Shown here one piece after another: positions 2,659 through 63,320 of a stretch of 64,000 nucleotides of DNA (position 1 is its first letter; every line of letters starts with the position of its first letter). The notes under the pieces are model-generated. The model was not told where the DNA came from and ran no database searches. It saw only the letters and a program-made list of their open reading frames with translations. The translations under genes and the position numbers were made by a program. The stretch comes from Polaromonas sp. (GTDB lineage Bacteria > Pseudomonadota > Gammaproteobacteria > Burkholderiales > Burkholderiaceae_C), in NCBI GenBank assembly GCA_013298945.1, contig JAAFJR010000008.1:17293-81292 (forward strand). The letters run 5' to 3'.

Positions 2659-2706
2659 GCTATATTTTTAATAGCTGTTTAGGCAGCAAATACGCCGGCT
2701 ACAGCC
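2659..2706 (+). repeat. 48-bp dispersed repeat, copy A (intergenic)
   Basis: gctatatttttaatagctgtttaggcagcaaatacgccggctacagcc. Matches 10 other copies in the window. Carries the TAG variant. Confidence 0.9.
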
Positions 2707-2727
2707 AAAAAACACTTCTGTAGAAGG

Positions 2728-3645
2728 CTATTTTCCAGTTTTAGAACTGCTGGATACCAAAAACACCCCCGGCAGAATCAGCAAACCGCCTATCAGGTGA
2801 TGCCAGCCGGGGGCTTCGCCTAGAACTGCCCAAGTTAAAAAAGCTGCATAGAGTGGCCCCAGATACAAAGCGACAGCGGTTCGGCTTGCGCCTAATATTT
2901 TTTGCGCCCAGCCGTAAATCCAATACGCACCCAAACCCGGCACCAAACCAGCCAAGACAATAAGCCAAAGCGCTTCTACGCCCCAAACCGTCAGGTTCGG
3001 CTGAAACAGCTCCCACACTGAAAAGGGGAGCAAGCTGGCAACGCCACCTAGGCAAATTGCGGCTAAGCGCGCAGTGGCACTCAAAGGACTTGGCCATTTT
3101 TTTTGCAAAAGTGCATAGCCCGCCCACGATACGGTGGCGGCGACTATCCATAAATCACCCACCACAAATTGCACGTTTGAGAGTGCCGCCCACTGCCCTT
3201 TCACTACAACATGCACCACGCCCAGCAAAGCCAAGCAAACGCCTGCAATTTGACGTTTGTTGATGGTTTCTCCCAGCATCCAAACCGCACCTAAGCTAAT
3301 CAACACAGGGGATGCGGCGTAAATCAGCGCAATATTCATCGCCTGTGTGGAACGCGCACCTTGGTACACCCAAGCGCCGCACACCATCATGCCCAAAGCG
3401 CCCAAGATCACGTATTGCCACCACACTTTGGCAATACTGGCACGCTGCGCCCACAACTCAGTCCGTGCTAAAACCACCAATACCAAGGCGGCCAAACCCC
3501 AGCGCCCCAACGCCAGTAAATGCGGGCCAATCACGCCGGGCGCTTTGCGGGCGACGATGTAGTTCACCGACCACAGCGCAGGGACGATCCACAGCAAAAT
3601 CAGTGCTTGTCGGGTTTGTTGTGCTGAATTTAAAGCGTCATTCAT
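2728..3645 (-). CDS. EamA/DMT-family transporter
   Basis: About 10 predicted TM helices in a duplicated EamA-like architecture. Start overlaps the dusA stop (ATGAATGA). Confidence 0.8.
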   Translation of the reverse strand: MNDALNSAQQTRQALILLWIVPALWSVNYIVARKAPGVIGPHLLALGRWGLAALVLVVLARTELWAQRASIAKVWWQYVILGALGMMVCGAWVYQGARSTQAMNIALIYAASPVLISLGAVWMLGETINKRQIAGVCLALLGVVHVVVKGQWAALSNVQFVVGDLWIVAATVSWAGYALLQKKWPSPLSATARLAAICLGGVASLLPFSVWELFQPNLTVWGVEALWLIVLAGLVPGLGAYWIYGWAQKILGASRTAVALYLGPLYAAFLTWAVLGEAPGWHHLIGGLLILPGVFLVSSSSKTGK

Positions 3646-4639
3646 GGGCTAATCTCATCACTTCTGCGGGTGCATGGTCGCGCAGCTTGTGGTCACTCCA
3701 CACCTGCCGCCAGCGCCGCGAACCGGCCAAACCGTGGCGCAAACCCAGCATGTGTCGGGCAATGGCCATCCAGTTCGTGCCATGCACGGCTTGTTCGCGC
3801 TCCATATACGTCACCATTTGCGCTTCAATAGATTCGCGGCTGGACACGGATGGTGCAGCACCAAAAAACGCTTCATCCCACGAAGCCAGTAACCACGGAT
3901 TATGGTAAGCCTCGCGTCCCACCATCACTCCATCTAAGTCTGTTAATTGCTCTGCAATTTGCACATTCGTGGTAAAGCCACCGTTGATGGCGATGTTCAG
4001 ATGCGGAAAATCTGCTTTGAGCTGATGCACGATTTCATAGCGCAGCGGTGGAATATCTCGGTTTTCTTTGGGCGACAGGCCTTTTAGCCACGCATTGCGA
4101 GCATGGACGATGAAGGTTTGACAGCCCGCATCTGCCACTTTGCTCACAAAATCGCGCACAAAACCATAGCTTTCAGGTGTATCTTCGGTTTTGTTGATGC
4201 CGATGCGGTGTTTCACGGTGATGGGCATTTTGGCAGAATCATGTACCGCATCCAGCATGGCTTTGACGCAATCGGCCACCAAATCTGGCTCGGCCATCAA
4301 ACACGCCCCAAAAGCGCCCTTTTGCACCCGCTCCGACGGGCAGCCGCAGTTAATATTGACCTCGTCATAGCCCCACTCTTCCGCCACACGGGCGGCAATC
4401 GCCAACTTATCCGGCTCGCTACCACCCAGCTGCAAGGCGAGCGGATGCTCCTCGGTGTTGTAGCGCAAATGACGCGGCACATCGCCATGCACGACAGCAC
4501 CGGCGTTGATCATCTCGGTGTAAAGCAGTGTGTTTTTGGATAACAAGCGGTGGAAATACCGGCAATGGCGGTCTGTCCAATCCATCATGGGGGCTACCGA
4601 CAATTTTCGGTGAGTTGCAAAGCTATAAATGTCAGTCAT
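3638..4639 (-). CDS. dusA: tRNA-dihydrouridine(20/20a) synthase
   Basis: N-terminus LSVAPMMDWTDRHCRYFHRLLSKNTLLYTEMI and INCGCP motif typical of DusA. Confidence 0.9.
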   Translation of the reverse strand: MTDIYSFATHRKLSVAPMMDWTDRHCRYFHRLLSKNTLLYTEMINAGAVVHGDVPRHLRYNTEEHPLALQLGGSEPDKLAIAARVAEEWGYDEVNINCGCPSERVQKGAFGACLMAEPDLVADCVKAMLDAVHDSAKMPITVKHRIGINKTEDTPESYGFVRDFVSKVADAGCQTFIVHARNAWLKGLSPKENRDIPPLRYEIVHQLKADFPHLNIAINGGFTTNVQIAEQLTDLDGVMVGREAYHNPWLLASWDEAFFGAAPSVSSRESIEAQMVTYMEREQAVHGTNWMAIARHMLGLRHGLAGSRRWRQVWSDHKLRDHAPAEVMRLAHE

Positions 4640-20229: not shown

Positions 20230-20964
20230 TCATCTAAGCTGTACTGAACCATTAACCGTGACAGAGACCGTACTTTTCCCTGCTTCAACAGGCACTGAAA
20301 CGTCTGAAGTCGCCATTTTCATTGATACTTCTGCCATCCGCGGCCGGGGCATATAAGCTTGGTCACCAGCACTAACCGTTACTTCGCGTACAGTATAGCT
20401 ACCAAGACCAAAGCTTTTCGCGATATCGGCAGCTTTGGCGCGGAAGCGATCAATGGCCGTATGCTGTGCCTCGGTTTCCACTTTGGCACGCTGCTCGCGG
20501 CTGAGGCTGAACGCGACATTGGCAATCGTTAGGGTCTGAATTTTGCCGGCTGCAGCGCTGATTTTGGCGAAATCGCGCCCCTCTAACACCAGCTCTGTCG
20601 TGCCCTGCCAGCCGTTGATTTTGCCGTCTTTGCCGTAGCGCGGGTAAAGGCTGAAGTTGCCTGTGCGTACATCGAGTTGACCTGAAGCCGCCGTCTTTTT
20701 AGCCTCTATTAACGCGGCATCCAAAGCAGTTTTAAGCTGTGTTTGTACGAGGTTGGCATCAGCCGCTTCACGTGTGGTGCTCATGTTGATGGTCAAAATA
20801 TCTTGCTGCACCTCTACAGCGGCATTGGCGCTGAGTTGAACGATATTTTGCGGCTCTTGATAGCGTTGAGCATCTTGATTTATCTGAGCAAATAAGGCTG
20901 TATTCGGCGTAATTATTGCCTGAATAGCTATAATTTTAATAGCAAATAAAAAATGTTCGTTCAT
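20230..20964 (-). CDS. SIMPL/DUF541-family periplasmic protein
   Basis: LSANAAVEVQQDILTINMSTTREAADANLVQTQLKTALDAAL and C-terminal VSVTVNGSVQL, typical of DUF541. Confidence 0.75.
   Translation of the reverse strand: MNEHFLFAIKIIAIQAIITPNTALFAQINQDAQRYQEPQNIVQLSANAAVEVQQDILTINMSTTREAADANLVQTQLKTALDAALIEAKKTAASGQLDVRTGNFSLYPRYGKDGKINGWQGTTELVLEGRDFAKISAAAGKIQTLTIANVAFSLSREQRAKVETEAQHTAIDRFRAKAADIAKSFGLGSYTVREVTVSAGDQAYMPRPRMAEVSMKMATSDVSVPVEAGKSTVSVTVNGSVQLR
20896..20943 (-). repeat. 48-bp dispersed repeat, copy B (in frame in the SIMPL gene N-terminus)
   Basis: ggctgtattcggcgtaattattgcctgaatagctataattttaatagc. Encodes AIKIIAIQAIITPNTA. CAG variant. Confidence 0.9.
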
Positions 20965-25935: not shown

Positions 25936-25990
25936 TCGCCCATTGTAACCGCTCAAATACGTAAAAACCCGTATTTAGACCCTAAAATAT

Positions 25991-26038
25991 GACTCTAGCC
26001 AGCGTATTTGCTGCCTGAACAGCTATTATATTTATAGC
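25991..26038 (-). repeat. 48-bp dispersed repeat, copy C (intergenic)
   Basis: gactctagccagcgtatttgctgcctgaacagctattatatttatagc. The only intergenic copy with CAG. Confidence 0.9.
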
Positions 26039-26054
26039 AAATTCAACGCCGCAT

Positions 26055-28697: not shown

Positions 28698-29234
28698 ATG
28701 TACACAACCATTCTCGACTTCTGGTTTAAAGAAATCTCCCCCGCCCAGTGGTGGAAGGTAGACCCCGCGTTCGACGCCCTTATCACCAGCCGGTTTGACG
28801 ATATCCACACCCAAGCCACGCAATCCGAGCTGTTTGCTTGGCGTAGCACGCCGCATGGACGCTTGGCTGAAGTTATCGTGCTCGACCAGTTCTCCCGAAA
28901 CATCCATCGTGGTACTCGCCGCGCTTTTGAGGCCGACCCTTTAGCGTTGGCACTGGCGCAAGAAGCCCTTGTAGCGCAAGCTGTTGAAGCACTGACGCAA
29001 GCGGAAGCAACGTTTTTGCTCATGCCCTATATGCACAGCGAATCTAAGCAGATACACGCCGTAGCTGAACCTTTGTTCAAAGCCAACACCGCAGAGGGCA
29101 ACTACAACTTCGAGCTACGCCACAAAGCCATCATCGACCGCTTTGGCCGCTACCCGCACCGCAACGCGATATTGGGGCGAGAATCTACGCCAGAAGAGCT
29201 GGCATTCTTGACTGAACCAGGTTCTAGCTTTTAA
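28698..29234 (+). CDS. DUF924-family protein
   Basis: ILDFWF...WW...D..I..RF....GRLAEVIVLDQFSRNI pattern. Confidence 0.75.
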   Translation: MYTTILDFWFKEISPAQWWKVDPAFDALITSRFDDIHTQATQSELFAWRSTPHGRLAEVIVLDQFSRNIHRGTRRAFEADPLALALAQEALVAQAVEALTQAEATFLLMPYMHSESKQIHAVAEPLFKANTAEGNYNFELRHKAIIDRFGRYPHRNAILGRESTPEELAFLTEPGSSF

Positions 29235-29250
29235 TTTTTAGCATGAAATT

Positions 29251-29298
29251 GACTATAGCCGCTGTATTTATTGCCTAAGCAGCTATGAAATTAATAGC
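29251..29298 (-). repeat. 48-bp dispersed repeat, copy D (intergenic)
   Basis: gactatagccgctgtatttattgcctaagcagctatgaaattaatagc. TAG variant (TAA on this strand). Confidence 0.9.
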
Positions 29299-29325
29299 TA
29301 TTTAAATGACAAATTTAGACTAAAT

Positions 29326-29564: not shown

Positions 29565-32030
29565 TTATTTCCGAAGGGCTTGCAGTTTTGAGAAGGCGGA
29601 GGCCATAGCTGATGGCGCTGCGGCGGATTGATTTCCCTGATTTCCATTTCCGCGTTTCTGCTGTCCCCTGCCCGCTCCTTCAAAGCGATTCTGCCCACCA
29701 TTGTGACGTTGTTCGCCTCGTTGCGCCGGTTTTTCACCCAGTTTCATGGTCAAACCAATGCGTTTACGCTCAACATCTACCTCGACGACTTGTACTTTAA
29801 CGATATCACCGGTTTTGACGACTTCTCTGGCGTCGGTGGTGAATTTGTGGCTCAGTTGGCTGACGTGGACCAAGCCGTCCTGGTGCACACCCAGGTCGAT
29901 AAACGCGCCAAAAGCTGCGACGTTGCTGACAGTGCCCTCCAAAATCATGCCTTCACGCAGGTCTTTGATGTCTTCCACACCGTCGTTGAAGCGCGCTACT
30001 TTGAAGTCTGGGCGCGGGTCGCGACCCGGTTTTTCTAGCTCACCCAGAATGTCTTTGACGGTGATGACGCCAAACTTGTCATTGGCAAACAACTCGGGAC
30101 GCAGGGTTTTTAGCATGTCTGCCCTGCCCATCAACTCGGCAACGGGTTTTCCGGTTGTGGTGATGATTTGCTCTACCACGGGATAGGTTTCAGGGTGAAC
30201 GCCGGTCATGTCCAGCGGGTTGTCGCCGCCGCGAATGCGCAAAAAGCCGGCACATTGCTCAAAGGCTTTGGGCCCCAGGCCGGTCACTTCACTGAGTTGA
30301 CGGCGGTTTTTGAACGCGCCATTCGCCTCGCGCCAGCGCACAACCGACTTGGCGACGCTGGCAGACAGGCCGGAGACGCGACTGAGTAAGGGGACGCTGG
30401 CGGTGTTCAAGTCGACACCGACCGAGTTGACGCAGTCTTCTACCACCGAGCCCAGGCTACGTGCCAGTTCGGACTGGTTCAAGTCATGCTGGTACTGCCC
30501 CACGCCAATGGCTTTGGGGTCGATTTTGACCAACTCGGCCAACGGGTCTTGCAAGCGCCGCGCAATGCTGGCCGCACCGCGCAGGCTGACGTCCACATCG
30601 GGCATTTCCAGGCTAGCAAACTCGCTGGCGCTGTAGACGGAAGCGCCAGCCTCTGAGACCACTACTTTTTCTATAGCTATTGAGGCAACGGATACGACGG
30701 CTACAGCCGTTTTTACACTATTTTCTCGGTTTTTAGCCATCAACTTTATCAAATCACCCGCCAGTTTGTCGGTTTCGCGGCTGGCTGTGCCGTTGCCGAT
30801 GGCGATGAGATTGACACCGTGTTTCTCGCACATTTTGCTCAAAATATGCAGCGAGCCGTCCCAGTCTTTGCGCGGCTCGTGCGGGTAGATGGTGGCGGTT
30901 TCGACCAGTTTGCCAGTCGCATCGACCACGGCCACTTTCACACCGGTGCGGATGCCAGGGTCTAAGCCCATCACCACACGTGGGCCGGCGGGTGCGGCCA
31001 GCAGCAAGTCGCGCAAGTTATCAGCAAACACCTTGATGGCGACTTTTTCAGCCTCTTCCCTGAGCTTAGCGAACAAATCGCGCTCGGTAGACAGGCTGAG
31101 CTTGACGCGCCAAGTCCAGGCAACGCATTTGCGGATCAAGTCGTCAGAGGCTCTGCCGAGATGACTCCAGCCTAAATGTAGGGCAATGCGTGCTTCGGCG
31201 AGTGAGACTGGAGCAACTTTTGTAGCAATGGCTGGCTCTGGAGGCGCGGGAAGAACCAACTTAGCATCCAAAATTTCCAACCCCCGCCCACGGAACACTG
31301 CCAAAGCGCGGTGCGACGGCACGCGGCCTATCGGTTCGTCGTAGTCAAAGTAGTCGCGAAACTTGGCGACATCGGCGTTGTTTGGGTCTTTGCCGTCCAT
31401 CAGCTTGCTTTGCAGCAAGCCTGTGTCCCACAGCCAAACGCGCAAACTTTGCACCAAGGCGGCGTCTTCGGCCCAGCGCTCTGAGAGCAAGTCGCGCACG
31501 CCGTCTAAAACGGCCGCTACGGTGGAGAAATCGGGCTGTTTGTCTTCGCCATCCACTTGAGGCTTGAGCGGAATCACAAAGGCTTCGGCCTCAAGTGCTG
31601 GTGCGAGTGTCGGGTCGGCGAAAAGCTTGTCTGCCAGCGGCTCTAGCCCCGCTTCCCGTGCCATTTGACCCTTGGTGCGGCGTTTGAGTTTGAACGGAAG
31701 ATACAGGTCTTCCAGCTCTTGCTTGGTGGCGCAGTCGGCAATTGAAAGGCACAGCGCATCAGTTAACTTGCCTTGCTCATCAATAGCTTTGAGGACAACT
31801 TCGCGCCTGTCGGCAAGTTCGCGCAGGTACGAGAGGCGAAATTCTAATTCTCGTAGCTGAATATCGTCTAGCCCGCCCGTGGCTTCCTTGCGATATCGGG
31901 CGATGAAGGGGACGGTTGCGCCGCCGTCGAGTAGTTCGACGGCAGATTTGACTTGCTCGGGTTTGACTTTGATTTCTAGAGAGATCTGCGTGATTATTTG
32001 GTGGATGATATGGGAGTTGATTTGATGCAT
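29565..32030 (-). CDS. tex: transcription accessory protein Tex (YqgF/HhH/S1 domains)
   Basis: ARYRKEATGGLDD, AIGNGTASRETD and SEAGASVYSAS motifs, a C-terminal S1 domain (GTVSNVAAFGAFIDLGVHQDGLVHVSQL) and a basic tail. Confidence 0.9.
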   Translation of the reverse strand: MHQINSHIIHQIITQISLEIKVKPEQVKSAVELLDGGATVPFIARYRKEATGGLDDIQLRELEFRLSYLRELADRREVVLKAIDEQGKLTDALCLSIADCATKQELEDLYLPFKLKRRTKGQMAREAGLEPLADKLFADPTLAPALEAEAFVIPLKPQVDGEDKQPDFSTVAAVLDGVRDLLSERWAEDAALVQSLRVWLWDTGLLQSKLMDGKDPNNADVAKFRDYFDYDEPIGRVPSHRALAVFRGRGLEILDAKLVLPAPPEPAIATKVAPVSLAEARIALHLGWSHLGRASDDLIRKCVAWTWRVKLSLSTERDLFAKLREEAEKVAIKVFADNLRDLLLAAPAGPRVVMGLDPGIRTGVKVAVVDATGKLVETATIYPHEPRKDWDGSLHILSKMCEKHGVNLIAIGNGTASRETDKLAGDLIKLMAKNRENSVKTAVAVVSVASIAIEKVVVSEAGASVYSASEFASLEMPDVDVSLRGAASIARRLQDPLAELVKIDPKAIGVGQYQHDLNQSELARSLGSVVEDCVNSVGVDLNTASVPLLSRVSGLSASVAKSVVRWREANGAFKNRRQLSEVTGLGPKAFEQCAGFLRIRGGDNPLDMTGVHPETYPVVEQIITTTGKPVAELMGRADMLKTLRPELFANDKFGVITVKDILGELEKPGRDPRPDFKVARFNDGVEDIKDLREGMILEGTVSNVAAFGAFIDLGVHQDGLVHVSQLSHKFTTDAREVVKTGDIVKVQVVEVDVERKRIGLTMKLGEKPAQRGEQRHNGGQNRFEGAGRGQQKRGNGNQGNQSAAAPSAMASAFSKLQALRK
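30661..30708 (+). repeat. 48-bp dispersed repeat, copy E (in frame in tex)
   Basis: actactttttctatagctattgaggcaacggatacgacggctacagcc. On the coding strand it encodes AVAVVSVASIAIEKVV. GAG variant. Confidence 0.85.
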
Positions 32031-40696: not shown

Positions 40697-42097
40697 TTAA
40701 AAACCATAAAATTTAAATTCTGTGCCTGAATTCATGGCTTTGCCCTGCGCAATCTCGGGTACTTTGCCATCTATCAGCTCCGCTAGCGCCTTGCCCGACC
40801 CTGCACCGTGTGTCCAGCCTAGCGTGCCGTGGCCTGCGTTGACCCACAGCTTCCCAACTTTGGTCTTACCGATGACGGGAATGTTGGTCGGCGTGGCTGG
40901 GCGCAGGCCTGCCCAGTAGTTAGGCGATCCGCCCTCTTCTAAGCTACGTGTATCGCACACGCCAGGCAGCACGGTTTCTACCCGTTTGGCCAGCATGCGG
41001 CAGCGTATTTGCGACAATTCAGAATCAATCGAGTTGTCATAAGCGCTAATTTCAATGGTTCCTGCCACGCGCAGCTGGTCGCCCAAACGCGTCATCGCAC
41101 ACTTGGCTTGGTCGTCAATGACTGAGACGTTGGGCGCTAGCTCAGGTTTCAAGATTTTGAAGGTGGCGCTATAGCCTTTGCCTGGGTAAATCGGCACATC
41201 GACGCCAACGGTGCGTAAAAGTGGTGCGGTGTAAGAGCCGCAAGCGACGACAAAAGCGTCTGCTATCAGGGTTTTTACCTCAAATTCGTCATTTTTATGT
41301 CCATTTATATCCTTATTTTTACCTCTAGCCAGCGTATTCACTGCCTGAATAGCTATAGATTTAATAGTATTTTTTGACATATTCAATGCCAATACATCAT
41401 GCCCGTACAGAATCTCAGCACCTCTAGCTGCACAAACTTGCGCTAGTTTTTGCGTGAATACGCGGGCGTCGCCGCTCTCGTCGCTATCCGTATAAGTGCC
41501 ACCTACGATGTGGGAAGCAAAGGATTTCAATGCGGGCTCGATTTTTAAAATAGCATCCCGCCCAAGCACTTGCCGATTCACGCCATATTTTTGCATCAAC
41601 AAAGCAGCTTCACCAGCTGCATCGAATGCGTGTTGGTCTGTGAAATAGTGAGCGATGCCGCGTTCAAGGCGGTTGTAATCAATACCAGTCGCATCGACAA
41701 TGTCTTTCAAAGCCAGATGGCTGTATGCGCCAAGCGCGACGATTTGCTGCACATTGCACTCAAACGCGGCGTCGTTACACTGCCCCAAAAACTGCATGCC
41801 CCAACGCCATTGCTGCCAACCACCACCGAATTTGGCAGTGGGGCCAAATGTGGGCCATTGTGGGCGAAACAGCAAAGGTGCTTCTTTGCTGAACATCCAT
41901 TTCAGGGCTTTAAGCGGCGCGTCTTTGTTGGCCCATGGCTCGCAGTAGCTCACCGATATTTGCCCTGCATTGGCAAAGCTGGTTTCCAGCGCAGCGTTTG
42001 GCTGGCGGTCAATCACAATCACTTCATGACCCAATTCCAACAAATGCCACGCAGTGCTGATGCCTATGATACCTGCGCCTAAAACAATGATTTTCAT
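40697..42097 (-). CDS. dadA: D-amino-acid dehydrogenase small subunit
   Basis: MKIIVLGAGIIGISTAWHLLELGHEVIVIDR FAD fold and a DadA-like C-terminus. Start chosen at MKII rather than the 22-codon-longer ORF. Confidence 0.85.
   Translation of the reverse strand: MKIIVLGAGIIGISTAWHLLELGHEVIVIDRQPNAALETSFANAGQISVSYCEPWANKDAPLKALKWMFSKEAPLLFRPQWPTFGPTAKFGGGWQQWRWGMQFLGQCNDAAFECNVQQIVALGAYSHLALKDIVDATGIDYNRLERGIAHYFTDQHAFDAAGEAALLMQKYGVNRQVLGRDAILKIEPALKSFASHIVGGTYTDSDESGDARVFTQKLAQVCAARGAEILYGHDVLALNMSKNTIKSIAIQAVNTLARGKNKDINGHKNDEFEVKTLIADAFVVACGSYTAPLLRTVGVDVPIYPGKGYSATFKILKPELAPNVSVIDDQAKCAMTRLGDQLRVAGTIEISAYDNSIDSELSQIRCRMLAKRVETVLPGVCDTRSLEEGGSPNYWAGLRPATPTNIPVIGKTKVGKLWVNAGHGTLGWTHGAGSGKALAELIDGKVPEIAQGKAMNSGTEFKFYGF
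41321..41368 (-). repeat. 48-bp dispersed repeat, copy F (in frame in dadA)
   Basis: acctctagccagcgtattcactgcctgaatagctatagatttaatagt. Encodes TIKSIAIQAVNTLARG. CAG variant. Confidence 0.9.
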
Positions 42098-44597: not shown

Positions 44598-45413
44598 ATG
44601 CAGCTTAAATTTGAGTTTAAATTTAAATCAATATTTGCTATTATTTTTATAGCTATTGAGGCAATAATTACGTCGGCTATAGCCCAATTTAACCCTCAAA
44701 ATGCTTGTAAAGCAGCATCTGGCGTTAATATCACACCTGTCGTAGAACTTTACACCTCAGAAGGCTGCAGCTCGTGCCCACCTGCTGAAAAATGGCTCAA
44801 CACTTTGAAGGGTAAAACCCCATCAAATTCAAACGCGAACCCTGCGGTGATTCAAGCTTTCCACGTCAATTATTGGGACTATATCGGCTGGCCTGACCGC
44901 TTTGCGACAGCTGCACACACAAATCGACAGCGGCAGATCTCTGCTTGGAACAAGCAAAACGGCATTTACACCCCGCAAATGGTGCTCAACGGTGGCGATT
45001 GGCGCGGCTGGGGCAGCGTTGGGCCGTTCAATGCAGCTGTGCCGTCTGCTAAAACAACCTCTACAAGCTCAATTATCCTAACTCAGACGGGCGCAGACCA
45101 GTTTGAAGCTGTGGTTAGTCCAGTTTCAGTCACAAACTCAGCTTCAGGCACGTGGTCAGCTTATTGGACTATCACTGAGCACGGCCATGTTACCAAGGTT
45201 AAAGCCGGTGAAAACAGTGGGGAGACGCTGCTGCACGATTTCGTTGTGCGCCAATACACGCCCGTAGGCGACTATAGTGCGACGACACCCCAAAAGCTGA
45301 GCTTACGCGGCGTCGCAGCCACCCCAGGGCACGAGCGACAGGTCAATTTAGTGGTTTTTGACCCCAAAACTGGCAAAACCATACAAGCCGTGTCTGCCAA
45401 CTGCTCGTCTTAA
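44598..45413 (+). CDS. DUF1223-family (thioredoxin-like) secreted protein
   Basis: AAGGAG Shine-Dalgarno 5 nt upstream. VELYTSEGCSSCPPAEKWL motif. Confidence 0.75.
   Translation: MQLKFEFKFKSIFAIIFIAIEAIITSAIAQFNPQNACKAASGVNITPVVELYTSEGCSSCPPAEKWLNTLKGKTPSNSNANPAVIQAFHVNYWDYIGWPDRFATAAHTNRQRQISAWNKQNGIYTPQMVLNGGDWRGWGSVGPFNAAVPSAKTTSTSSIILTQTGADQFEAVVSPVSVTNSASGTWSAYWTITEHGHVTKVKAGENSGETLLHDFVVRQYTPVGDYSATTPQKLSLRGVAATPGHERQVNLVVFDPKTGKTIQAVSANCSS
44637..44684 (+). repeat. 48-bp dispersed repeat, copy G (in frame in the DUF1223 gene N-terminus)
   Basis: gctattatttttatagctattgaggcaataattacgtcggctatagcc. Encodes AIIFIAIEAIITSAIA. GAG variant. Confidence 0.9.
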
Positions 45414-50919: not shown

Positions 50920-50936
50920 GATGATCTTCTTTTTTT

Positions 50937-50984
50937 ACTATAGTTTTAATAGCTACTTAGGCAATAAATACGCCGGCTACAGCC
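50937..50984 (+). repeat. 48-bp dispersed repeat, copy H (intergenic, nirB-nirD spacer)
   Basis: actatagttttaatagctacttaggcaataaatacgccggctacagcc. TAG variant. Followed by an AT-rich extension with ttgcttatattt x2. Confidence 0.9.
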
Positions 50985-51038
50985 ATATTTACACCTATTT
51001 TTGCTTATATTTGCTTATATTTACCTATATTGATCGAT

Positions 51039-53618: not shown

Positions 53619-55376
53619 ATGAACGATATTGACATTGGCTACACCTCGCTAGCAGGCACCAAACCCATCAACGAAGACTTCGCCGGTGCGATGTTGCCCG
53701 CCAAAGACGACAAAGACATGGGTGTCATCATGGCGCTGGCTGATGGCGTGAGCATGGGTGGCATGGGCAAAGAGGCCGCGCAGACCACAGTCACCAGTTT
53801 GGTGCGTGATTACTTTTGCACACCCCCGACGTGGGATACCAGCGTCGCGCTAGACCGCATCATCGCCGCGCAAAACGCATGGCTGGTCGCTCTGAACAAG
53901 CGTCGCCCCGAACTCGGCTTCACCACCTTGACCGCTTTGGTGCTGCGCGGCCAAACCTATACCCTTGCCCACGTGGGCGACACCCGCTGCTACCTGCTGC
54001 GGGACGGGCAACTCACCCAGCTGACGCACGACCACATCGTCAACCACACCGACTTCAAACACCAACTGCTGCGCAGCGTTGGCTCGGAAGACCGCTTGGC
54101 GGTGGACTACTCGCAAGGCGAGGTGATGCTGGGCGACTGCTTCATTTTGCTGTCCGACGGGGTCTATGGCTTCCTGTCAGATGCCCGAATCAAGGCGATT
54201 TTTAAGGATATAGCCCAGCAAACCGGCACGTCTTGGCAGAGTTTGAGCGAGACTTTGGCTGAAAATTTGGTCGATGCAGCGCTCAAATCTGGCAGCAACG
54301 ACAACGCCAGTGCGCTGGTTGCCCATGTCAAAGGCTTGTCCGAAGCCACGCTAGAAGATGCCACGCTCGCCGCCTTGAACTTACCTATCCCGCCGTTGCT
54401 GAAGCCTGGTGAAAAAATCGATGGTTTTGAGGTACTGGCAAACGTAGCAGACAGCGGCATCAACGTCATTTACCAAGTCAAAGAATCTGCCACTGGCAAG
54501 CTCTACGCTCTCAAAACCCTGCACCCCAGTCGTGCCAAAGACAAAGAAGAACGCACCATGTTGGTGCATGAAGCTTGGCTAACCCAACAATTGCAAGCAA
54601 CGCGCGCTGCCGATTCTTTGGTGCATTTGAAAGCAGATCTGAGTGCTCCTTCCTCTTACTACATCGTTTACGAGTGGCATGAAGGCGAAACGTTGCAGCA
54701 GCAATTAGTCAGAGGCGCTCCCTTCGACATAACCCACGCCATCAACGCTGCCTCCCAAATCACCAAAGCGCTCAGCCACTTGCACCGCCAGCACGTGATT
54801 CACCGCGACATCAAGCCCGCCAATCTGCACCAAGGCGCTGACGGCGTGCTGCGTTTGCTGGATTTGGGTGTGGCGCTCAGCGGCAAAGAACCGAAGGCAA
54901 TGCGCGACCTGCACGCCGGAACGCCCAGCTACATCAACCCCGAACAATGGGGTGTGCATTTTAAGAATGCGAGTGACGACAGCAAAGAACTGCCCGACGC
55001 GCAAAGCGACCTCTTCGCCCTAGGCGTCACCCTGTACCAACTCTTAACCGGCAAACTCCCCTACGGCGAAGTTCTCCCCGGCCAGTCCGGCCGCTACTAC
55101 CGTGACCCCCTAGCCCCCAGCCGACACCGCCCTGAAATCCCGAAATGGCTGGACAACATCGTTCAGAAAGCCATCGCCAGAGACAAAAACCAGCGCTTTG
55201 AAACCGCAGAAGAACTCCTCCTAGCCCTAGACCGAGGCGCCTCCCGCCCCCTAAACGCCCCGTTAGCCACCCCGCTGATTCAGCGCGACCCGACGGCGGT
55301 TTGGAAGATAGGGCTGGGTATTTCAGTGCTTTTTAACCTGCTTTTGGTCTATTGGCTGCTTTTTTTGCCGAAATAG
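53619..55376 (+). CDS. bifunctional PP2C-type phosphatase / Ser-Thr protein kinase with a C-terminal TM anchor
   Basis: PP2C motifs (ALADGVSMGG, VGDTRCYLL, LLSDGVYG, GSNDNASALV). Kinase motifs (YALKTL, HRDIKPANL, DLG, GTPSYINPE). Terminal hydrophobic helix. Confidence 0.85.
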   Translation: MNDIDIGYTSLAGTKPINEDFAGAMLPAKDDKDMGVIMALADGVSMGGMGKEAAQTTVTSLVRDYFCTPPTWDTSVALDRIIAAQNAWLVALNKRRPELGFTTLTALVLRGQTYTLAHVGDTRCYLLRDGQLTQLTHDHIVNHTDFKHQLLRSVGSEDRLAVDYSQGEVMLGDCFILLSDGVYGFLSDARIKAIFKDIAQQTGTSWQSLSETLAENLVDAALKSGSNDNASALVAHVKGLSEATLEDATLAALNLPIPPLLKPGEKIDGFEVLANVADSGINVIYQVKESATGKLYALKTLHPSRAKDKEERTMLVHEAWLTQQLQATRAADSLVHLKADLSAPSSYYIVYEWHEGETLQQQLVRGAPFDITHAINAASQITKALSHLHRQHVIHRDIKPANLHQGADGVLRLLDLGVALSGKEPKAMRDLHAGTPSYINPEQWGVHFKNASDDSKELPDAQSDLFALGVTLYQLLTGKLPYGEVLPGQSGRYYRDPLAPSRHRPEIPKWLDNIVQKAIARDKNQRFETAEELLLALDRGASRPLNAPLATPLIQRDPTAVWKIGLGISVLFNLLLVYWLLFLPK

Positions 55377-55386
55377 AGGAGAATTC

Positions 55387-55434
55387 GGTTGTAGCCGGCG
55401 TATTTATTGCCTAAGAAGCTATTAAATACATAGC
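55387..55434 (-). repeat. 48-bp dispersed repeat, copy I (intergenic)
   Basis: ggttgtagccggcgtatttattgcctaagaagctattaaatacatagc. TAG variant. Confidence 0.9.
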
Positions 55435-55457
55435 ATTCCTTACCGCCACTTATGCTA

Positions 55458-60487: not shown

Positions 60488-60504
60488 GATATTAATAACT
60501 ACGA

Positions 60505-60520
60505 AGCAATCTGCGTGCCA
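60505..60520 (-). promoter_or_regulatory. sigma-54 (-24/-12) promoter for nasFED
   Basis: The minus strand reads TGGCACGCAGATTGCT, an exact match to TGGCACG-N4-TTGCW. Confidence 0.75.
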
Positions 60521-60593
60521 ATTTTATAAAAATAAAAATCTTTCACTTGCCGAACAACACAAAACCCGTTCATCCTGAGCTTGTCGAAGGGTT

Positions 60594-61259
60594 CTAAACC
60601 AACAAATCAGCCACATCCAACATCCGCTGCGCCACCTCAACCACTTTCAAACTCTTGTCCATCGCAGTTTTGCGCAGTTTGTCGTAAGCAGCTTGCTCGT
60701 TCAAGCCTTGGCGCTGCATCAGCATGCCTTTGGCACGGTCAATCACTTTGCGGTCTTGCAACTCTACTTTGGTCTCTGCCAGCTCTTGGCGCAGAGCCTG
60801 CTCATGCTGAAAACGCGCCATCGCCACGTCTAAAATCGGGCGAATCCGCTCGCTGGACAGCCCCGCCACAATGTAAGCCGATACGCCAGCAGCTACCGCG
60901 TCTTTGACGTGGGAAGTGTCATTGTCATTGGTGAACATCACAATCGGGCGGCGTGCATCTCGGGTCGCCACCACCACATGCTCCAGCGCATCACGCGCTT
61001 GGCTTTCCGCATCCACAATGATCATGTCGGGCTGAAGCTGCGTCAAACGCTCGTTCAAAAACGTGTCTGCAGGCAGCACAGCGACCAAATTGAAGCCATT
61101 CTCAAGCAAACCAATGCGCAAACTGCGTGAGCGCTCCGCTTGGTTGATGGTATAGGCATCTGCGGGGTCAGCAATAGCTAACTCAGGGGCAATCACCACA
61201 ATGCGCAGCGCTTGCAAAGGCAGATTTGCTGGTTTAGCGAGAGATTTGCCTGTATTCAT
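60594..61259 (-). CDS. nasT: ANTAR-domain antiterminator response regulator (NasT/AmiR family)
   Basis: REC-like N-terminus and C-terminal ANTAR (LQDRKVIDRAKGMLMQRQGLNEQAAYDKLRKTAMDKSLKVVEVAQ). Confidence 0.85.
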   Translation of the reverse strand: MNTGKSLAKPANLPLQALRIVVIAPELAIADPADAYTINQAERSRSLRIGLLENGFNLVAVLPADTFLNERLTQLQPDMIIVDAESQARDALEHVVVATRDARRPIVMFTNDNDTSHVKDAVAAGVSAYIVAGLSSERIRPILDVAMARFQHEQALRQELAETKVELQDRKVIDRAKGMLMQRQGLNEQAAYDKLRKTAMDKSLKVVEVAQRMLDVADLLV

Positions 61260-61307
61260 ACTCAGAAAAATGCAACCATCGTGCCAATATGCTGCAGCGC
61301 AGCAAGT

Positions 61308-61751
61308 TTAATGCGCCGTCTGCGCCTTGCTCACCACGTCATACCTGCTTAGAGCATAGCCTCGGTCCTTGTAATGCTTCCAGCGGGTGCGAGCGGCTTG
61401 CAGGTCGGCTTCGTTTTGGCCGACGATTTCTAGCAAACGCTCAAATCGCTCAAAACCGGCGGGTAAAGCTGCACCAAGATTGAGCAAAACCTGCGATTCT
61501 GCGGCTGAATTGGGCAGATCCAAGCTCAAAACGATAGGCGAATGGGCGATGACCTCGGCTGCTGCATCTACCAAGCAATGCGGCAAAAACTCGGTTGGCG
61601 ACATTGCCCACAGTTTGGCGCTGAGCAATTTCAGTGCATCAATCTGCCCAAGAACAAGCACTTGGGCAGATTTTTTTTGTGTCGCACGCAAAAGGCGGCA
61701 GGCATAGTCCAGCTTGTCTGGCGCGTTGACGTGGAAGGCGATTTCGGTCAT
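61308..61751 (-). CDS. holC: DNA polymerase III chi subunit
   Basis: MTEIAFHVNAPDKLDYACRLL N-terminus, size, and the conserved pepA-holC neighbourhood. Confidence 0.8.
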   Translation of the reverse strand: MTEIAFHVNAPDKLDYACRLLRATQKKSAQVLVLGQIDALKLLSAKLWAMSPTEFLPHCLVDAAAEVIAHSPIVLSLDLPNSAAESQVLLNLGAALPAGFERFERLLEIVGQNEADLQAARTRWKHYKDRGYALSRYDVVSKAQTAH

Positions 61752-61757
61752 GCAAGG

Positions 61758-63320
61758 TTATGCTTTGACTGTGGTTTTTGCATTTTTAGCAGGTTTTTTT
61801 ACTATTTTTTTAATAGCTGTTGAGGCAGGTAATACGCTGGCTACAGCATTATTTGACTCTAAATCAAGCAAATAATTCAACAACAAAAGCACAGGACGAC
61901 CGGTGGAGCCTTTAACCGCCCCACTCTTCCATGCTGTGCCCGCAATATCCAAGTGCGCCCAAGGGTAGCTGGCGGTAAATTTTTGCAAAAACTTGGCAGC
62001 GGTGACTGAGCCTGCGGCACGACCTGCCACATTGGCCATGTCGGCAAAGTTGGACTTCAAGCCTTCGCCGTATTCGTCGTCCAAAGGCATGCGCCAGCAA
62101 GGGTCGCCGCTGGATTCGCCGGCTTTGAGCAAGGCATTAGCCAAATCATCGTTGGCGCTGAACAAACCGCTGCGCACCGCGCCTAGGGCAATGACGCAAG
62201 CGCCGGTCAAGGTGGCGATGTCGATGACGGCTGAAGGTTTGAAGCGTTCAGCGTAGGTCAGCGCGTCGCACAGCACCAAGCGGCCTTCGGCGTCGGTGTT
62301 GAGGTTTTCAATGGTTTGGCCGCTCATGCTGGTCACCACGTCGCCCGGTTTCACGGCTTTGCCGCTGGGCATGTTTTCGCAGGCGGGAATCAAGCCAACC
62401 ACGTTGATTTTGGGCTGAATCCCCGCCAAAGCGCGGAACGTGCCCAACACGCTAGCTGCGCCACACATGTCAAACTTCATTTCGTCCATCTCCGGCGCGG
62501 GTTTCAGCGAGATGCCACCTGTGTCAAAAGTGATGCCTTTGCCCACCAATACCGTGGGTGCAACGGCTTTAGCTGCGCCGTTGTACTTCAAAACAATAAA
62601 TCGCAGCGGCTGGTCTGAGCCCTGCGCGACGGACATGAACGAACCCATACCCAACTTGGCCACTTCCTTCAAGCCGAGTACATCAACGCTGATGTTTTTG
62701 TATTTTGACAAGCTCTTGGCCGCTTTACCCAGCAAGTCTGGCGTGGCGTGGTTGGCGGGGCGATTTCCCCACTCTTTTGCGAACTCAATACCACTCATAG
62801 CCGGCGTAATATATGCCTGAGCAGCTATTAAATCAGTAGCACTTAAAGCATCTTTATCAACCACTACGGTGATGTGCGTGAGCTTGCGCGGCTCGACTTT
62901 GGTTTTGGTGCTGGTGTAAACGTAACTGGCATCAGCTGCGCAGAGTACGGCGGCTTTAACAGCTTCTGAAGTGATTTTGTTAACTTCGCTCAAGCAAATG
63001 ACGAGTTTTTTAGCTGACGTAGACTTGATACTTGAAACTGCTGCTGTAACGGCGGTTTTGATGTTTTTGACCGAACCGTCACCAGCACCGACCAACACGG
63101 TTCGCGTAGCGGCTGCATGGCTGGAGCGGTAGACTTGCAGCAATTTACCAGTTTTAGCTTCAAAATCGCCCTCTTTCATAGCCTGGGAAATCAAATCCGT
63201 TAAATTAGCTGTGGTTTTAGACTTGGTTTGAGAAAACGACTCAGGAACAAGCACAATCAAGGCGTCGCAGGTGGTTTTGCTGGTTTGCGTTATATCTTGG
63301 GCAATGAGTTTCAGTTCCAT
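61758..63320 (-). CDS. pepA: leucyl aminopeptidase (M17)
   Basis: VGKGITFDTGGISLKP and NTDAEGRLVLCDAL motifs. Divergent from lptF, as in many proteobacteria. Confidence 0.9.
   Translation of the reverse strand: MELKLIAQDITQTSKTTCDALIVLVPESFSQTKSKTTANLTDLISQAMKEGDFEAKTGKLLQVYRSSHAAATRTVLVGAGDGSVKNIKTAVTAAVSSIKSTSAKKLVICLSEVNKITSEAVKAAVLCAADASYVYTSTKTKVEPRKLTHITVVVDKDALSATDLIAAQAYITPAMSGIEFAKEWGNRPANHATPDLLGKAAKSLSKYKNISVDVLGLKEVAKLGMGSFMSVAQGSDQPLRFIVLKYNGAAKAVAPTVLVGKGITFDTGGISLKPAPEMDEMKFDMCGAASVLGTFRALAGIQPKINVVGLIPACENMPSGKAVKPGDVVTSMSGQTIENLNTDAEGRLVLCDALTYAERFKPSAVIDIATLTGACVIALGAVRSGLFSANDDLANALLKAGESSGDPCWRMPLDDEYGEGLKSNFADMANVAGRAAGSVTAAKFLQKFTASYPWAHLDIAGTAWKSGAVKGSTGRPVLLLLNYLLDLESNNAVASVLPASTAIKKIVKKPAKNAKTTVKA
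61801..61849 (+). repeat. dispersed repeat, copy J (49 bp; forms part of the pepA 3' end)
   Basis: actattttttttaatagctgttgaggcaggtaatacgctggctacagca. On the coding strand it encodes AVASVLPASTAIKKIV. GAG variant. Confidence 0.85.
62793..62840 (-). repeat. 48-bp dispersed repeat, copy K (in frame inside pepA)
   Basis: actcatagccggcgtaatatatgcctgagcagctattaaatcagtagc. Encodes ATDLIAAQAYITPAMS. CAG variant. Confidence 0.85.

What the first reader, a model, noticed from the sequence alone, without database searches (positions are those of the whole stretch)
2671..62830. Genic copies of the repeat have lost a built-in stop codon (TAG becomes CAG or GAG)
- **Intergenic copies.** At the position just before GGCA, copies A, D, H and I read TAG. 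This is TAG in the orientation-A frame and TAA in the orientation-B frame. Copy C reads CAG.
- **Genic copies.** All six read CAG (B, F, K) or GAG (E, G, J). This gives Gln or Glu in one orientation and Ser (TCA) in the other.
- **Interpretation.** The element consensus therefore carries a stop in both usable frames. Only variants with that stop removed are found within genes. That is the signature expected if genic copies are truly translated and under selection. Alternatively, only stop-free variants may survive insertion into genes.
Basis: seen in the sequence. Interest (0 to 1): 0.7.

Follow-up and report, generated by a model that had tools for sequence, protein, structure and literature searches.

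The report
Stop-free repeat copies translated inside genes
A short DNA repeat found throughout cold-freshwater Polaromonas-like bacteria normally carries a stop codon, and the copies that sit in frame inside real genes (two even supply the export signal of a protein) all lack that stop, which makes this a new example of a known phenomenon, not a new one.

Summary
The window has exactly 11 copies of one repeat. At the base before AGGCA, the five intergenic copies read T,T,T,T,C and the six copies inside ORFs read C or G.

I extended the test to 208 copies (window plus 101 stretches from related Polaromonas/Rhodoferax-type MAGs):
- T occurs in 103/138 intergenic copies and 8/59 genic copies (Fisher 7e-16; 6e-15 after removing orthologous duplicates).
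- T occurs with its neighbouring bases intact in none of the 52 copies read in the two frames where it makes TAG or TAA.

The host ORFs are real genes: Tex, PepA, a DadA-like oxidoreductase, DUF1223 and SIMPL. Tex, PepA and DUF1223 each have many orthologues that keep the segment in frame. Copies B and G sit where homologues have their signal peptide.

The association is partly true by definition, because an ORF cannot contain a stop. Three results are not:
- Frame use is far from what stop avoidance alone predicts.
- Orientation B uses only G, because C would give TGA.
- T survives in copies read in other frames.

The direction "lost" is not shown. About 24% of intergenic copies already lack T. 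G's GAG derives from CAG. A few old copies keep T and remove the stop by changing a neighbouring base.

This is a new repeat family of the known RPE/ERIC-like intragenic kind.

The parts
2653..2724 (+). Copy A, intergenic, between convergent ORFs 1866-2648(+) and 2728-3645(-). State T (TAG) at 2680.
20878..20949 (-). Copy B, codons 6-29 of the SIMPL/DUF541 protein gene 20230-20964(-). State C (CAG, Gln) at 20922. It occupies the signal-peptide position.
25973..26044 (-). Copy C, intergenic, between 24568-25956(-) and 26055-26816(-). State C at 26017. The orthologous copy in L014 has A.
29233..29304 (-). Copy D, intergenic, downstream of 28698-29234(+). State T at 29277.
30655..30726 (+). Copy E inside tex (29565-32030, -), read in the orientation-B frame as ...VKTAVAVVSVASIAIE.... 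State G (TCA, Ser) at 30682. It lies in a loop of the YqgF-like domain that is 25-26 aa long in orthologues with an empty site.
41303..41374 (-). Copy F inside a DadA-like FAD oxidoreductase gene (40697-42163, -; probable start at 42097). It encodes TIKSIAIQAVNTLARGKNKDIN. State C (CAG, Gln) at 41347.
44631..44702 (+). Copy G, codons 12-35 of the DUF1223 gene 44598-45413(+). It encodes the signal peptide ...SIFAIIFIAIEAIITSAIA|QF. State G (GAG, Glu) at 44658. Orthologues have CAG.
50931..51002 (+). Copy H, intergenic, between 50533-50919(-) and 51039-53528(-). State T at 50958.
55369..55440 (-). Copy I, intergenic, starting at the stop codon of 53619-55376(+). State T at 55413.
61795..61866 (+). 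Copy J in the 3' end of pepA (61758-63320, -), read in the orientation-B frame as the C-terminal tail ...NNAVASVLPASTAIKKIVKK.... State G (TCA, Ser) at 61822.
62775..62846 (-). Copy K in pepA, encoding ATDLIAAQAYITPAMS at the start of the interdomain helix. State C (CAG, Gln) at 62819. The net length change against K-less orthologues is only +4 aa.

Best explanation
**What it is.** The repeat is a short, non-autonomous dispersed element, about 72 nt (24 codons) at full length.
- It has five nearly invariant blocks: CTAT, ATAGC, AGGCA, AATAC and GGCTA.
- Variable bases lie between the blocks, and it has two weak hairpins.
- It is abundant in a clade of about 50% GC Polaromonas/Rhodoferax-like Comamonadaceae.

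**Where copies sit.** Most copies lie just downstream of genes, in either orientation.

**What happens in genes.** Selection acts as a filter when a copy lands in, or replaces part of, a coding region. Survivors share three properties:
- They preserve the reading frame.
- They are read in one of two frames that encode a bland peptide rich in Ala, Ile, Val and Thr (A..IA.QAINTPA, or LAGV..AS.AIK.IA on the other strand).
- They do not carry T at column 10. T makes TAG in one of these frames and TAA in the other.

**Source of stop-free copies.** Column 10 is one of the naturally variable positions, and about a quarter of intergenic copies are already C, A or G. Stop-free copies are therefore available without a prior gene-killing step.

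**Why C in one orientation and G in the other.** In orientation A, any of C, G or A works, and C (Gln) dominates. In orientation B, C would give TGA, so G (Ser) is used.

**After fixation.** The segment evolves almost freely at the protein level. It suffers in-frame deletions but is kept open.

**Use as a signal peptide.** At the N-terminus of exported proteins, the hydrophobic peptide serves as the signal peptide.

**Shown versus inferred.**
- Shown: the base states, the frames, that the host genes are real, the empty site in Tex, and the relaxed but open evolution.
- Inferred: the mode of spread, that the filter acts at insertion and not by later repair, and signal-peptide function.
For: **Family and distribution.** There are 11 copies in the window. 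A capped scan of genome contigs returned 101 stretches, all from Polaromonas, Rhodoferax or Burkholderiaceae MAGs. nhmmer finds 208 copies in these sequences.

**State by location**:
- Intergenic: T103, C22, A10, G3.
- Genic: T8, C24, G23, A4.
- Frame A1: 32 copies, C22, G6, A4, T0.
- Frame B2: 20 copies, G17. Two keep T with column 11 changed (AAA/AAG). One diverged copy has C.

**Fisher tests.** 7e-16 for all copies, 6e-15 after de-duplication, 2e-10 for high-confidence internal copies.

**No broken genes.** Only 1 of 115 T-copies ends a long ORF at the built-in stop.

**Frame use.** Observed counts for frames A1, A2, A3, B1, B2, B3 are 30, 2, 0, 1, 18, 4. From the openness of intergenic copies, the expected counts are about 9-12, 12-14, 0, <1, 4-5, 27.

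**Real genes.**
- Tex aligns to P. aeruginosa Tex (3BZC) end to end, with a 17-aa insertion at E.
- Of 120 Tex orthologues, 118 could be read at this loop. They range from 25-26 aa (empty) to 49 aa (+24 aa = 72 nt), all in frame.
- PepA.
- All close DUF1223 orthologues start M..K..FTILFIAIQAINTPAIA|EF. Distant ones have ordinary signal peptides.
- SIMPL homologues have signal peptides where B lies.

**Relaxed constraint.** In element segments pN is 0.15-0.25, against 0.04-0.05 in the rest of the gene. pS is similar in both (comparisons retrieved by protein similarity only).

**Intergenic context.** Convergent 38, tandem 56, divergent 6. The median distance from a gene's 3' end is 26 nt, with no orientation bias.
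Against: **Gene calls.** They come from my own crude codon-usage ORF picker, not from a validated gene finder. N-terminal copies depend on the choice of start codon.

**No mobility signature.** I found no transposase, clear terminal inverted repeats or target-site duplication.

**Replacement, not insertion.** Three of the six genic copies in the window (K, F, G) replace native sequence of nearly the same length. Simple transposition does not explain this.

**Possible DNA-level constraint.** In GC-rich orthologues the invariant blocks persist at synonymous sites. This hints at DNA-level constraint or gene conversion, which the selfish-insertion picture does not predict.

**Serine bias.** Orientation B uses G 15:0 over A, although A is commoner in the intergenic pool. 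Something beyond stop avoidance is acting, either a G subfamily or a preference for Ser.
Confidence: 0.7

Rival explanations
1. Repair after insertion. On this view T-bearing consensus copies insert into genes and create a premature stop. The gene is later rescued by a mutation that removes the stop.
For: - **Tex:** orthologous copies carry TCA, TTA, TAT and AAG at the state codon. The first three are one step from TAA, and AAG is two. They are up to three steps from each other. A TAA ancestor needs 5 changes and a TCA ancestor needs 6.
- **T kept, stop removed elsewhere:**
  - L108 reads TAT.
  - L107 and L102 read GCT AAG, which looks like GCC TAA shifted by one base.
  - L073 and L017 have column 11 changed.
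  - L186 reads TAC in the DUF1223 signal peptide.
Against: - A mid-gene stop would have to persist in the population until it was rescued.
- All 32 frame-A1 copies differ from TAG at column 10 only. None uses TTG, TCG, TGG or TAY. This fits pre-existing polymorphism at a naturally variable column (24% non-T in intergenic copies).
- No T-copy is caught splitting a gene.
- In neutral loop positions, two-step codon drift over pS of 0.4-0.6 is also plausible.
Confidence: 0.2
2. The association is only a bookkeeping artefact. On this view "genic" means "inside an ORF", which by definition excludes stops, and the ORFs through the repeat are chance extensions or mis-annotations.
For: The classification is ORF-based. 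B and G lie at ORF starts and J at an ORF end, where extension artefacts are common.
Against: - E, F and K lie deep inside Tex, the DadA-like gene and PepA, with conserved domains on both sides.
- Among the orthologues examined for Tex, PepA and DUF1223, the segment stays in frame despite many indels.
- B and G occupy exactly the signal-peptide slot of exported protein families.
- Frame use is not what openness alone predicts.
- T-copies are not found splitting genes.
Confidence: 0.05
3. The repeat is a functional DNA or RNA motif, such as a protein-binding site, an uptake-type signal or a recombination site. On this view it is maintained or spread by conversion and not by transposition. Coding copies are the places where the motif can be written into a tolerated peptide, as with uptake sequences in Haemophilus and Neisseria.
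For: - **Conservation pattern.** It is block-like: 24 columns are near-invariant and interleaved with free columns. This is not the uniform decay expected of dead transposon copies.
- **Replacement.** K, F and G replace native sequence with almost no net length change.
- **DadA-like gene.**
  - Of about 68 orthologues fetched by protein patterns, 17 keep 16-24 of the 24 invariant columns despite GC3 of 0.73-0.90. The rest keep 3-14 of 24, nearly all 10 or fewer.
  - Synonymous third positions on invariant A/T columns stay A/T in 61/75 cells. The figure is 46/85 on variable columns and 0.20 gene-wide.
- **Other genes.** The same tendency appears in PepA K and in DUF1223.
Against: - Tex shows a clean empty site against a filled site that is 72 nt longer, in close relatives. 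That is insertion, not gradual conversion.
- About 24 specified bases is far more than any known uptake signal.
- Most copies (about 70%) are intergenic although most of the genome is coding.
- The hairpins are weak, there is no covariation, and there is no Rfam match.
- The lineages are not independent. They form roughly 7-8 groups.
- Variable columns are also AT-enriched, so recent recurrent acquisition is not excluded.
Confidence: 0.2

Closest known systems
Rickettsia palindromic elements (RPE; Ogata et al. 2000, as summarised in PMC10969869)
   Same: Both are short dispersed repeats, and a large fraction of copies sit in frame inside unrelated housekeeping genes. They are translated as extra peptide segments that the protein tolerates. 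Orthologues with and without the insert exist.
   Different: - RPEs are about 100-150 bp and occur in obligate intracellular Alphaproteobacteria with decaying genomes.
- This element is about 72 nt and occurs in free-living freshwater and cryosphere Betaproteobacteria. About 70% of copies are intergenic, and the consensus carries a stop that genic copies must lack.
- There is no sequence similarity (not tested against RPE sequences; no Rfam hit).
Enterobacterial ERIC/RU-1, RU-2 and RU-3 intragenic fusions (Delihas 2007, PMC2759123)
   Same: These are intergenic repeats whose ORFs are found fused in frame to genes. [quoted passage not shown] That is exactly the situation of copies G and B here.
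   Different: The RU elements are 103-168 bp with long stable hairpins. Most host ORFs there are small hypothetical proteins with little phylogenetic conservation. Here the hosts include Tex, PepA and a DadA-like enzyme, and Tex, PepA and DUF1223 each have many orthologues that keep the segment.
REP/BIME elements and REPINs mobilised by RAYT transposases
   Same: The element is very short and has a block-conserved sequence with imperfect palindromes. There are hundreds of copies by extrapolation. Copies lie mostly just downstream of genes, in both orientations, and are rare between divergent promoters.
   Different: REPs are by definition extragenic. Here about a quarter of the copies are coding. 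No conserved GTAG/CTAC tetranucleotide, no inverted-pair (REPIN) arrangement and no RAYT gene was seen, but these were not searched for systematically.
Motif pair ATAGCT(N)22CAAAAG of Polaromonas naphthalenivorans CJ2 (PMC5217627)
   Same: It occurs in the same genus and shares the ATAGCT block. It has 125 copies, of which 101 are intergenic, 18 are in genes and 34 lie between convergent genes. This is the same distribution as found here.
   Different: The right-hand block differs: CAAAAG there, against CTAGAG at the same spacing here. It was listed only as an uncharacterised statistical motif. I could not fetch that genome to test whether the two are homologous.
DNA uptake sequences (USS/DUS) inside genes of Pasteurellaceae and Neisseriaceae (own knowledge)
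   Same: The motif occurs in both genes and spacers. In genes it sits in particular frames that encode tolerated peptides. Some copies replace native sequence without changing its length.
   Different: Uptake signals specify 9-12 bases, occur about once per kb and accumulate by point mutation. This element specifies about 24 bases over 40-70 nt, occurs about once per 6 kb, and shows at least one clean 72-nt insertion.

Membership tests
In-frame intragenic dispersed repeats (RPE/ERIC-like class) | The same short repeat is present in many unrelated intergenic and genic sites. | tested here: met
   There are 11 copies in 64 kb, with none in shuffles. There are 208 copies in the window plus 101 related stretches.
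In-frame intragenic dispersed repeats (RPE/ERIC-like class) | Genic copies lie in frame inside genes that are conserved on both sides of the copy. | tested here: met
   Tex, PepA and the DAO-family gene have domains on both sides. Twenty-six stop-free high-confidence internal copies were found elsewhere.
In-frame intragenic dispersed repeats (RPE/ERIC-like class) | Orthologues without the insert exist (empty site). | tested here: met
   The Tex loop is 25-26 aa when empty and up to 49 aa when filled, among orthologues at 81-93% identity. For K, F and G the copy replaces native sequence and there is no clean empty site.
MITE (miniature inverted-repeat transposable element) | Terminal inverted repeats | tested here: inconclusive
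   Only an AT-rich AAATTT-like hexamer occurs at both ends. It is too short and too low in information to call.
MITE (miniature inverted-repeat transposable element) | Target-site duplication at the insertion | tested here: inconclusive
   In the Tex filled-versus-empty comparison, the junctions show similarity between target and element (AAAAATGC / AAATATGC; IEKVVV / IENVVK), but no clean duplication.
MITE (miniature inverted-repeat transposable element) | A related autonomous IS with matching ends | not tested
There was no match in the plasmid collection.
REP / REPIN-RAYT system | An extragenic imperfect palindrome of 20-40 nt that forms a stable hairpin | tested here: not met
   About 28% of copies are genic. 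The hairpins are weak: 5 bp, and on average 5.9 of 9 pairs at about -3.5 kcal/mol. There is no covariation.
REP / REPIN-RAYT system | An associated RAYT (Y1 transposase) gene flanked by the repeats | not tested
   None was looked for systematically in the window or in the fetched loci.
Intrinsic (bidirectional) terminator | A GC-rich stem followed by a T run, placed after genes | tested here: not met
   Copies do sit a median of 26 nt after gene ends. However, in the one 20-kb stretch I scanned (44001-64000, which holds intergenic copies H and I), only one weak 5-pair hit overlaps a copy, and the total number of hits is close to that of shuffles.
Known RNA families (Rfam 15) | A match to a curated covariance model | tested here: not met
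   There was no hit on any copy at gathering scores. The window's only hit is the tRNA. There was no hit at E<=1 on copy H.
DNA uptake sequence | A short motif (about 10 nt), about one per kb, that accumulates without length change | tested here: not met
   About 24 invariant bases are specified, and there is about one copy per 6 kb. Tex shows a clean 72-nt insertion. Replacement without length change is seen in K, F and G, so this feature is only partly met.

The most novel reading that the evidence does not exclude
The repeat may not be mere selfish DNA. Its five invariant blocks may be kept by selection or by continual gene conversion, even inside protein-coding genes of GC-rich relatives. 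In those genes they persist at synonymous sites while neighbouring variable positions have drifted to G/C. On this reading the motif has a DNA- or RNA-level function, such as a binding site, a recombination site or an uptake-type signal. It would be written into proteins wherever a tolerated peptide allows, including as a ready-made signal peptide.
Probability: 0.2. Interest if true: 0.75.

Novelty: new member of a known kind. Interest (0 to 1): 0.5.

Why it matters
**Selection on repeats in genes.** The result gives a clean, quantified case of how selection filters a dispersed repeat that lands in genes:
- One variable base decides whether a copy can live in a gene.
- The permitted base depends on orientation.
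- The frame actually used is chosen by what the peptide looks like, not only by the absence of stops.

**Scope.** In-frame repeats in conserved genes are best known from Rickettsia. This case extends them to free-living Comamonadaceae that are abundant in glacier-fed streams.

**Signal peptides.** It adds a well-supported example of a repeat serving as the signal peptide of a conserved exported protein family.

**Annotation.** These segments disturb domain models. The YqgF model (PF14639) is missing from, or falls below threshold in, many Tex proteins that carry the insert. They could also be mistaken for assembly or frameshift problems in MAGs.

**If the motif is functional.** If the DNA-level conservation is real, the family would be a new functional genomic motif worth an experiment.

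Tried and rejected
**RNA and structure**
- **Rfam.** There was no hit at gathering scores on the whole window, nor at E<=1 on copy H.
- **Structural partner for the state base.** I looked using mutual information over 188 distinct copies and alifold. There was no covarying partner and only a 5-bp consensus hairpin.
- **Terminator or promoter role.** Consensus scans were no better than shuffles.

**Conservation tests that turned out biased**
- **Synonymous conservation, window versus L046.** This gave 0/29 synonymous differences in J and K. I rejected it as evidence because L046 was retrieved by an exact match to the repeat pattern. Comparisons retrieved by protein similarity show ordinary pS.
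- **Orthologous-pair divergence of invariant columns.** The same ascertainment problem applies, so I did not use it.

**Searches that gave nothing**
- **Plasmid collection.** The 72-nt consensus gave no match.
- **PDB search for the DadA-like protein, to place copy F.** The homologues were too distant to show the insert.
- **Literature.** I found no description of this element. There was only an unnamed motif pair in P. naphthalenivorans. The Polaromonas JS666 genome paper cited for MITEs is not held.

**Ideas rejected**
- **K as a chance resemblance.** Rejected. K matches the 20 specified pattern bases exactly, and 22 of 24 invariant columns. K-less orthologues match only 10 of 24.

Full report
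**1. The observation**

A repeat search finds one family with five copies in one orientation and six in the other. A degenerate pattern built from the invariant bases finds exactly these 11 places, and none in 100 shuffles.

I call the strand that reads ...GCTAT-N7-ATAGCT-NN-T-[state]-AGGCA-N5-TACGCCGGCTA... orientation A. At the state base:
- A, D, H and I are T.
- B, C, F and K are C.
- E, G and J are G.

The location of each copy follows from the ORF list and from my own gene picker:
- A, C, D, H and I lie between genes.
- B, E, F and G each lie in a long ORF.
- J and K lie in the same long ORF.

B, F, G and K are read in the same orientation-A frame, as ...IA(I/A)(Q/E)A.... E and J are read in the same orientation-B frame, as ...VASxAI.... 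In these two frames T would give TAG and TAA respectively. Every factual statement in the finding is therefore correct. In the window alone, Fisher p = 0.015.

**2. Where the window comes from, and a larger sample**

All came from Polaromonas sp., Rhodoferax sp. or unnamed Burkholderiaceae/Pseudomonadota MAGs, many of them from glacier-fed streams and most at about 50% GC.

A profile built from the 11 window copies finds 209 hits in these stretches plus the window. Of these, 208 could be put in register. Overall the state base is T115, C53, G26, A14.

I classified copies with a simple codon-usage gene picker trained on the long ORFs of the same sequences. By class, the state base is:

| Class | T | C | A | G |
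|---|---|---|---|---|
| Intergenic, 138 copies | 103 | 22 | 10 | 3 |
| Genic, 59 copies | 8 | 24 | 4 | 23 |

Eleven further copies overlap a gene end.

Fisher tests of T versus non-T:
- All copies: 7e-16.
- After collapsing copies with similar flanks (190 clusters): 6e-15.
- Copies more than 45 codons from either gene end, in high-scoring genes: 2e-10.
- Without the window's own copies: 2e-13.

**3. What is definitional and what is not**

A copy inside an ORF cannot contain an in-frame stop, so part of the association is built in. Four results go beyond that.

1. *Frames.* After de-duplication the genic copies use frames A1, A2, A3, B1, B2 and B3 as 30, 2, 0, 1, 18 and 4. Suppose the only filter were the absence of stops, and take the intergenic copies as the source pool. 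The expected counts are then about 9-12, 12-14, 0, <1, 4-5 and 27 (chi-square p of 1e-21 or lower). Copies sit overwhelmingly in the two frames that need the stop removed. These frames encode Ala/Ile/Val/Thr-rich peptides. The frames that tolerate T encode Cys/Tyr/Arg-rich peptides and are avoided.
2. *Orientation.* In A1 the state is C22, G6, A4. In B2 it is G in 17 of 20, because C would give TGA. This explains why E and J are G while B, F and K are C.
3. *T in other frames.* T is retained in the genic copies read in the other frames, and in two B2 copies that changed column 11 instead.
4. *No broken genes.* Only 1 of 115 T-copies ends a long, positively scoring ORF at the built-in stop. T-copies are not seen truncating genes.

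**4. The host genes are real, and the segments are part of them**

- **Tex (copy E).**
  - The protein aligns over its full length with P. aeruginosa Tex (3BZC), with one 17-residue insertion exactly at copy E.
  - Of 120 orthologues listed, 118 could be read between GNGTASRET and SEAGASVYS. This loop is 25-26 residues in empty-site forms. It is 36-49 residues in forms with this repeat.
  - The longest form is 24 residues (72 nt) longer than the empty one. All forms are in frame.
- **PepA (copies K and J).**
  - K encodes the start of the interdomain helix. It is present in all orthologues of 70% identity or more.
  - J forms the C-terminal tail. It is still recognisable in a Rhodoferax orthologue at 68% identity.
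- **DUF1223 (copy G).** Essentially every orthologue of the clade begins M..K..FTILFIAIQAINTPAIA|EF. More distant orthologues have ordinary, unrelated signal peptides of the same length.
- **SIMPL (copy B).** Homologues likewise have a signal peptide where B lies. Signal-peptide function is inferred from position and composition. No predictor was available.
- **Other signal-peptide cases.** Several further N-terminal copies in the related stretches look the same. One lies in a protein whose mature N-terminus resembles the Bug/TctC binding-protein family, judged by eye.
- **Evolutionary rates.** In comparisons retrieved by protein similarity, the element segments have pN of 0.15-0.25, against 0.04-0.05 for the rest of the gene. 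pS is comparable. They are translated and tolerated but weakly constrained, apart from staying open.

**5. Anatomy of the element**

- **Extent.** The column profile of 138 intergenic copies shows conservation from about 17 nt before the core to 54 nt after its start. That is 72 nt, the same length as the full Tex insertion.
- **Conservation.** Twenty-four columns are nearly invariant, in five blocks (CTAT, ATAGC, AGGCA, AATAC, GGCTA). The columns between them, including the state column (75% T), are variable.
- **Structure.** There is a 5-bp hairpin (GCTAT-N7-ATAGC) and a weak second one (AAATACGCC-N7-GGCRTATTT, on average 5.9 of 9 pairs). No column covaries with the state base, and there is no Rfam match.
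- **Stops.** The consensus has stops in all six frames.
- **Position.** Intergenic copies lie a median of 26 nt after a gene end, in either orientation. They are rare between divergent genes: 6, against 38 convergent and 56 tandem.

**6. Polarity: was the stop lost?**

*For a filter on pre-existing variants.*
- About 24% of intergenic copies already lack T, and orthologous intergenic copies differ in state. The window's copy C has C and its L014 orthologue has A.
- All A1 copies differ from TAG only at this naturally variable column.
- Copy G's GAG is a later change from CAG, which nearly all its orthologues carry.

*For repair after insertion.*
- Orthologous Tex copies read TCA, TTA, TAT and AAG.
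- Several old copies keep T and remove the stop next door: GCT AAG in L107 and L102, TAT in L108, TAC in L186, and AAA/AAG in L073 and L017.

A TAA ancestor for the Tex copy needs 5 steps and a TCA ancestor needs 6, which decides nothing. I therefore regard "genic copies lack the stop" as shown and "have lost it" as open. The filter model is the more likely of the two.

**7. Things the simple picture does not explain**

- K, F and G replace native sequence of nearly equal length, instead of adding 24 codons.
- For the DadA-like gene I fetched about 70 orthologous loci using protein patterns that lie outside the repeat, and could score 68 of them.
  - Seventeen carry an element-like segment (16-24 of 24 invariant columns) although their genes are GC-rich (GC3 0.73-0.90).
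  - The others score 3-14 of 24, nearly all 10 or fewer. They read a native strand, A-I-[DE]-[ST]-V-A-V-[RQ], that resembles the left half of the element peptide.
  - In the 15 GC-rich carriers, synonymous third positions that fall on invariant A/T columns remain A/T in 61 of 75 cells. The figure is 46 of 85 on variable columns, and 0.20 is expected gene-wide. The lineages are not independent.
- The same tendency is seen for K in PepA and for the DUF1223 signal peptide in a Polaromonas genome with GC3 of 0.77.
- Either the invariant blocks are kept by DNA-level selection or gene conversion, or the copies are younger than the genes and recur at the same places. This is the basis of the novel reading, to which I give about 0.2.

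**8. Comparison with what is known**

- In-frame residence of a dispersed repeat in conserved genes is the hallmark of the Rickettsia palindromic elements (review PMC10969869).
- The intergenic distribution resembles REP elements. However, the element fails the extragenic and stable-hairpin criteria, and no RAYT was sought.
- A motif pair ATAGCT(N)22CAAAAG, with 125 copies and a similar genic/intergenic split, was listed without characterisation for P. naphthalenivorans CJ2 (PMC5217627). It may be a relative.
- I found no description of this element itself.

**9. Verdict**

It overstates the direction of change and overlooks the circular part, the orientation rule and the other frames.
- The element is a new family of a known kind.
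- Interest is moderate. It would rise if the DNA-level conservation inside genes proves real.

**Limits**
- The gene calls are my own crude ones.
- The sample is truncated and drawn from related MAGs.
- Signal-peptide function and the mode of spread are inferred.

Noticed in passing
window 7382-19721: This is an AT-rich block (38-40% GC, against about 50-55% elsewhere). It encodes an exopolysaccharide cluster: GT4 glycosyltransferases, a Polysacc_synt flippase, a Wzz/GNVR chain-length protein, a Poly_export/SLBB exporter and a Bac_transf initiating transferase. It contains no copy of the repeat, although the flanks do (A at 2.6 kb, B at 20.9 kb). That fits a horizontally acquired island younger than the repeat's spread.
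   Followed up: partly
Tex orthologues (proteins P0162, P0170, P0173, P0184-P0208 etc.), at the position equivalent to window 30655-30726: The same Tex loop that holds copy E carries, in other lineages, one to several copies of a different repeat. It is translated as ...VRPEPVEG..STSSARTG..., which looks like a GC-rich REP-type element read in frame. This loop is therefore a hot spot that tolerates insertions of at least two repeat families.
   Followed up: partly
DadA-like orthologues L112-L168 (metagenome contigs), segment equivalent to window 41303-41374: In GC-rich relatives (GC3 up to 0.90), the invariant blocks of the repeat persist at synonymous sites (GCT, GTA GCT, GCA, GCT). Neighbouring variable third positions have shifted to G/C. 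This points to DNA-level constraint or gene conversion, or else to recurrent acquisition at one site.
   Followed up: partly
window 61795-61866 and 62775-62846; L046 1779-1809 and 2764-2794: Two copies in opposite orientation sit 985 nt apart inside the single gene pepA. The arrangement is conserved in another species-level MAG (GFS_6950). J-like sequence is still recognisable in the C-terminal tail of a Rhodoferax pepA at 68% identity (L104), so both copies are old.
   Followed up: yes
window 38039-38114 versus 41131-41206: A 76-nt stretch in the spacer between 36843-38027(+) and the serine dehydratase gene 38210-39598(-) is 79% identical to an internal part of the DadA-like gene 3 kb away. 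It looks like a leftover fragment of a second copy of that gene.
   Followed up: no
window 21166-21237, inside ORF 21037-21474(-): This is a tandem 9-nt repeat, (TGCAGTATT)n. It lies within a 145-aa ORF that has no Pfam match, next to the SIMPL gene that carries copy B.
   Followed up: no
literature: PMC5217627, Table 7: An unsupervised motif survey listed ATAGCT(N)22CAAAAG in Polaromonas naphthalenivorans CJ2, with 125 copies (101 intergenic, 18 genic, 34 between convergent genes). It also listed GCTTAT(N)5AAGCG in Acidovorax ebreus. Comamonadaceae may share a superfamily of such elements with a common ATAGCT block.
   Followed up: partly
Tex orthologue table: Pfam's YqgF model (PF14639) is recorded for many Tex orthologues. 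It is absent from most of those with the longer insert, and in the window's protein it scores below threshold (24.6 bits against a cutoff of 35). The repeat insertion degrades domain detection in annotation pipelines.
   Followed up: no
window 46151-46240 (-): tRNA-Ser (GGA), the only RNA gene detected in the window.
   Followed up: no
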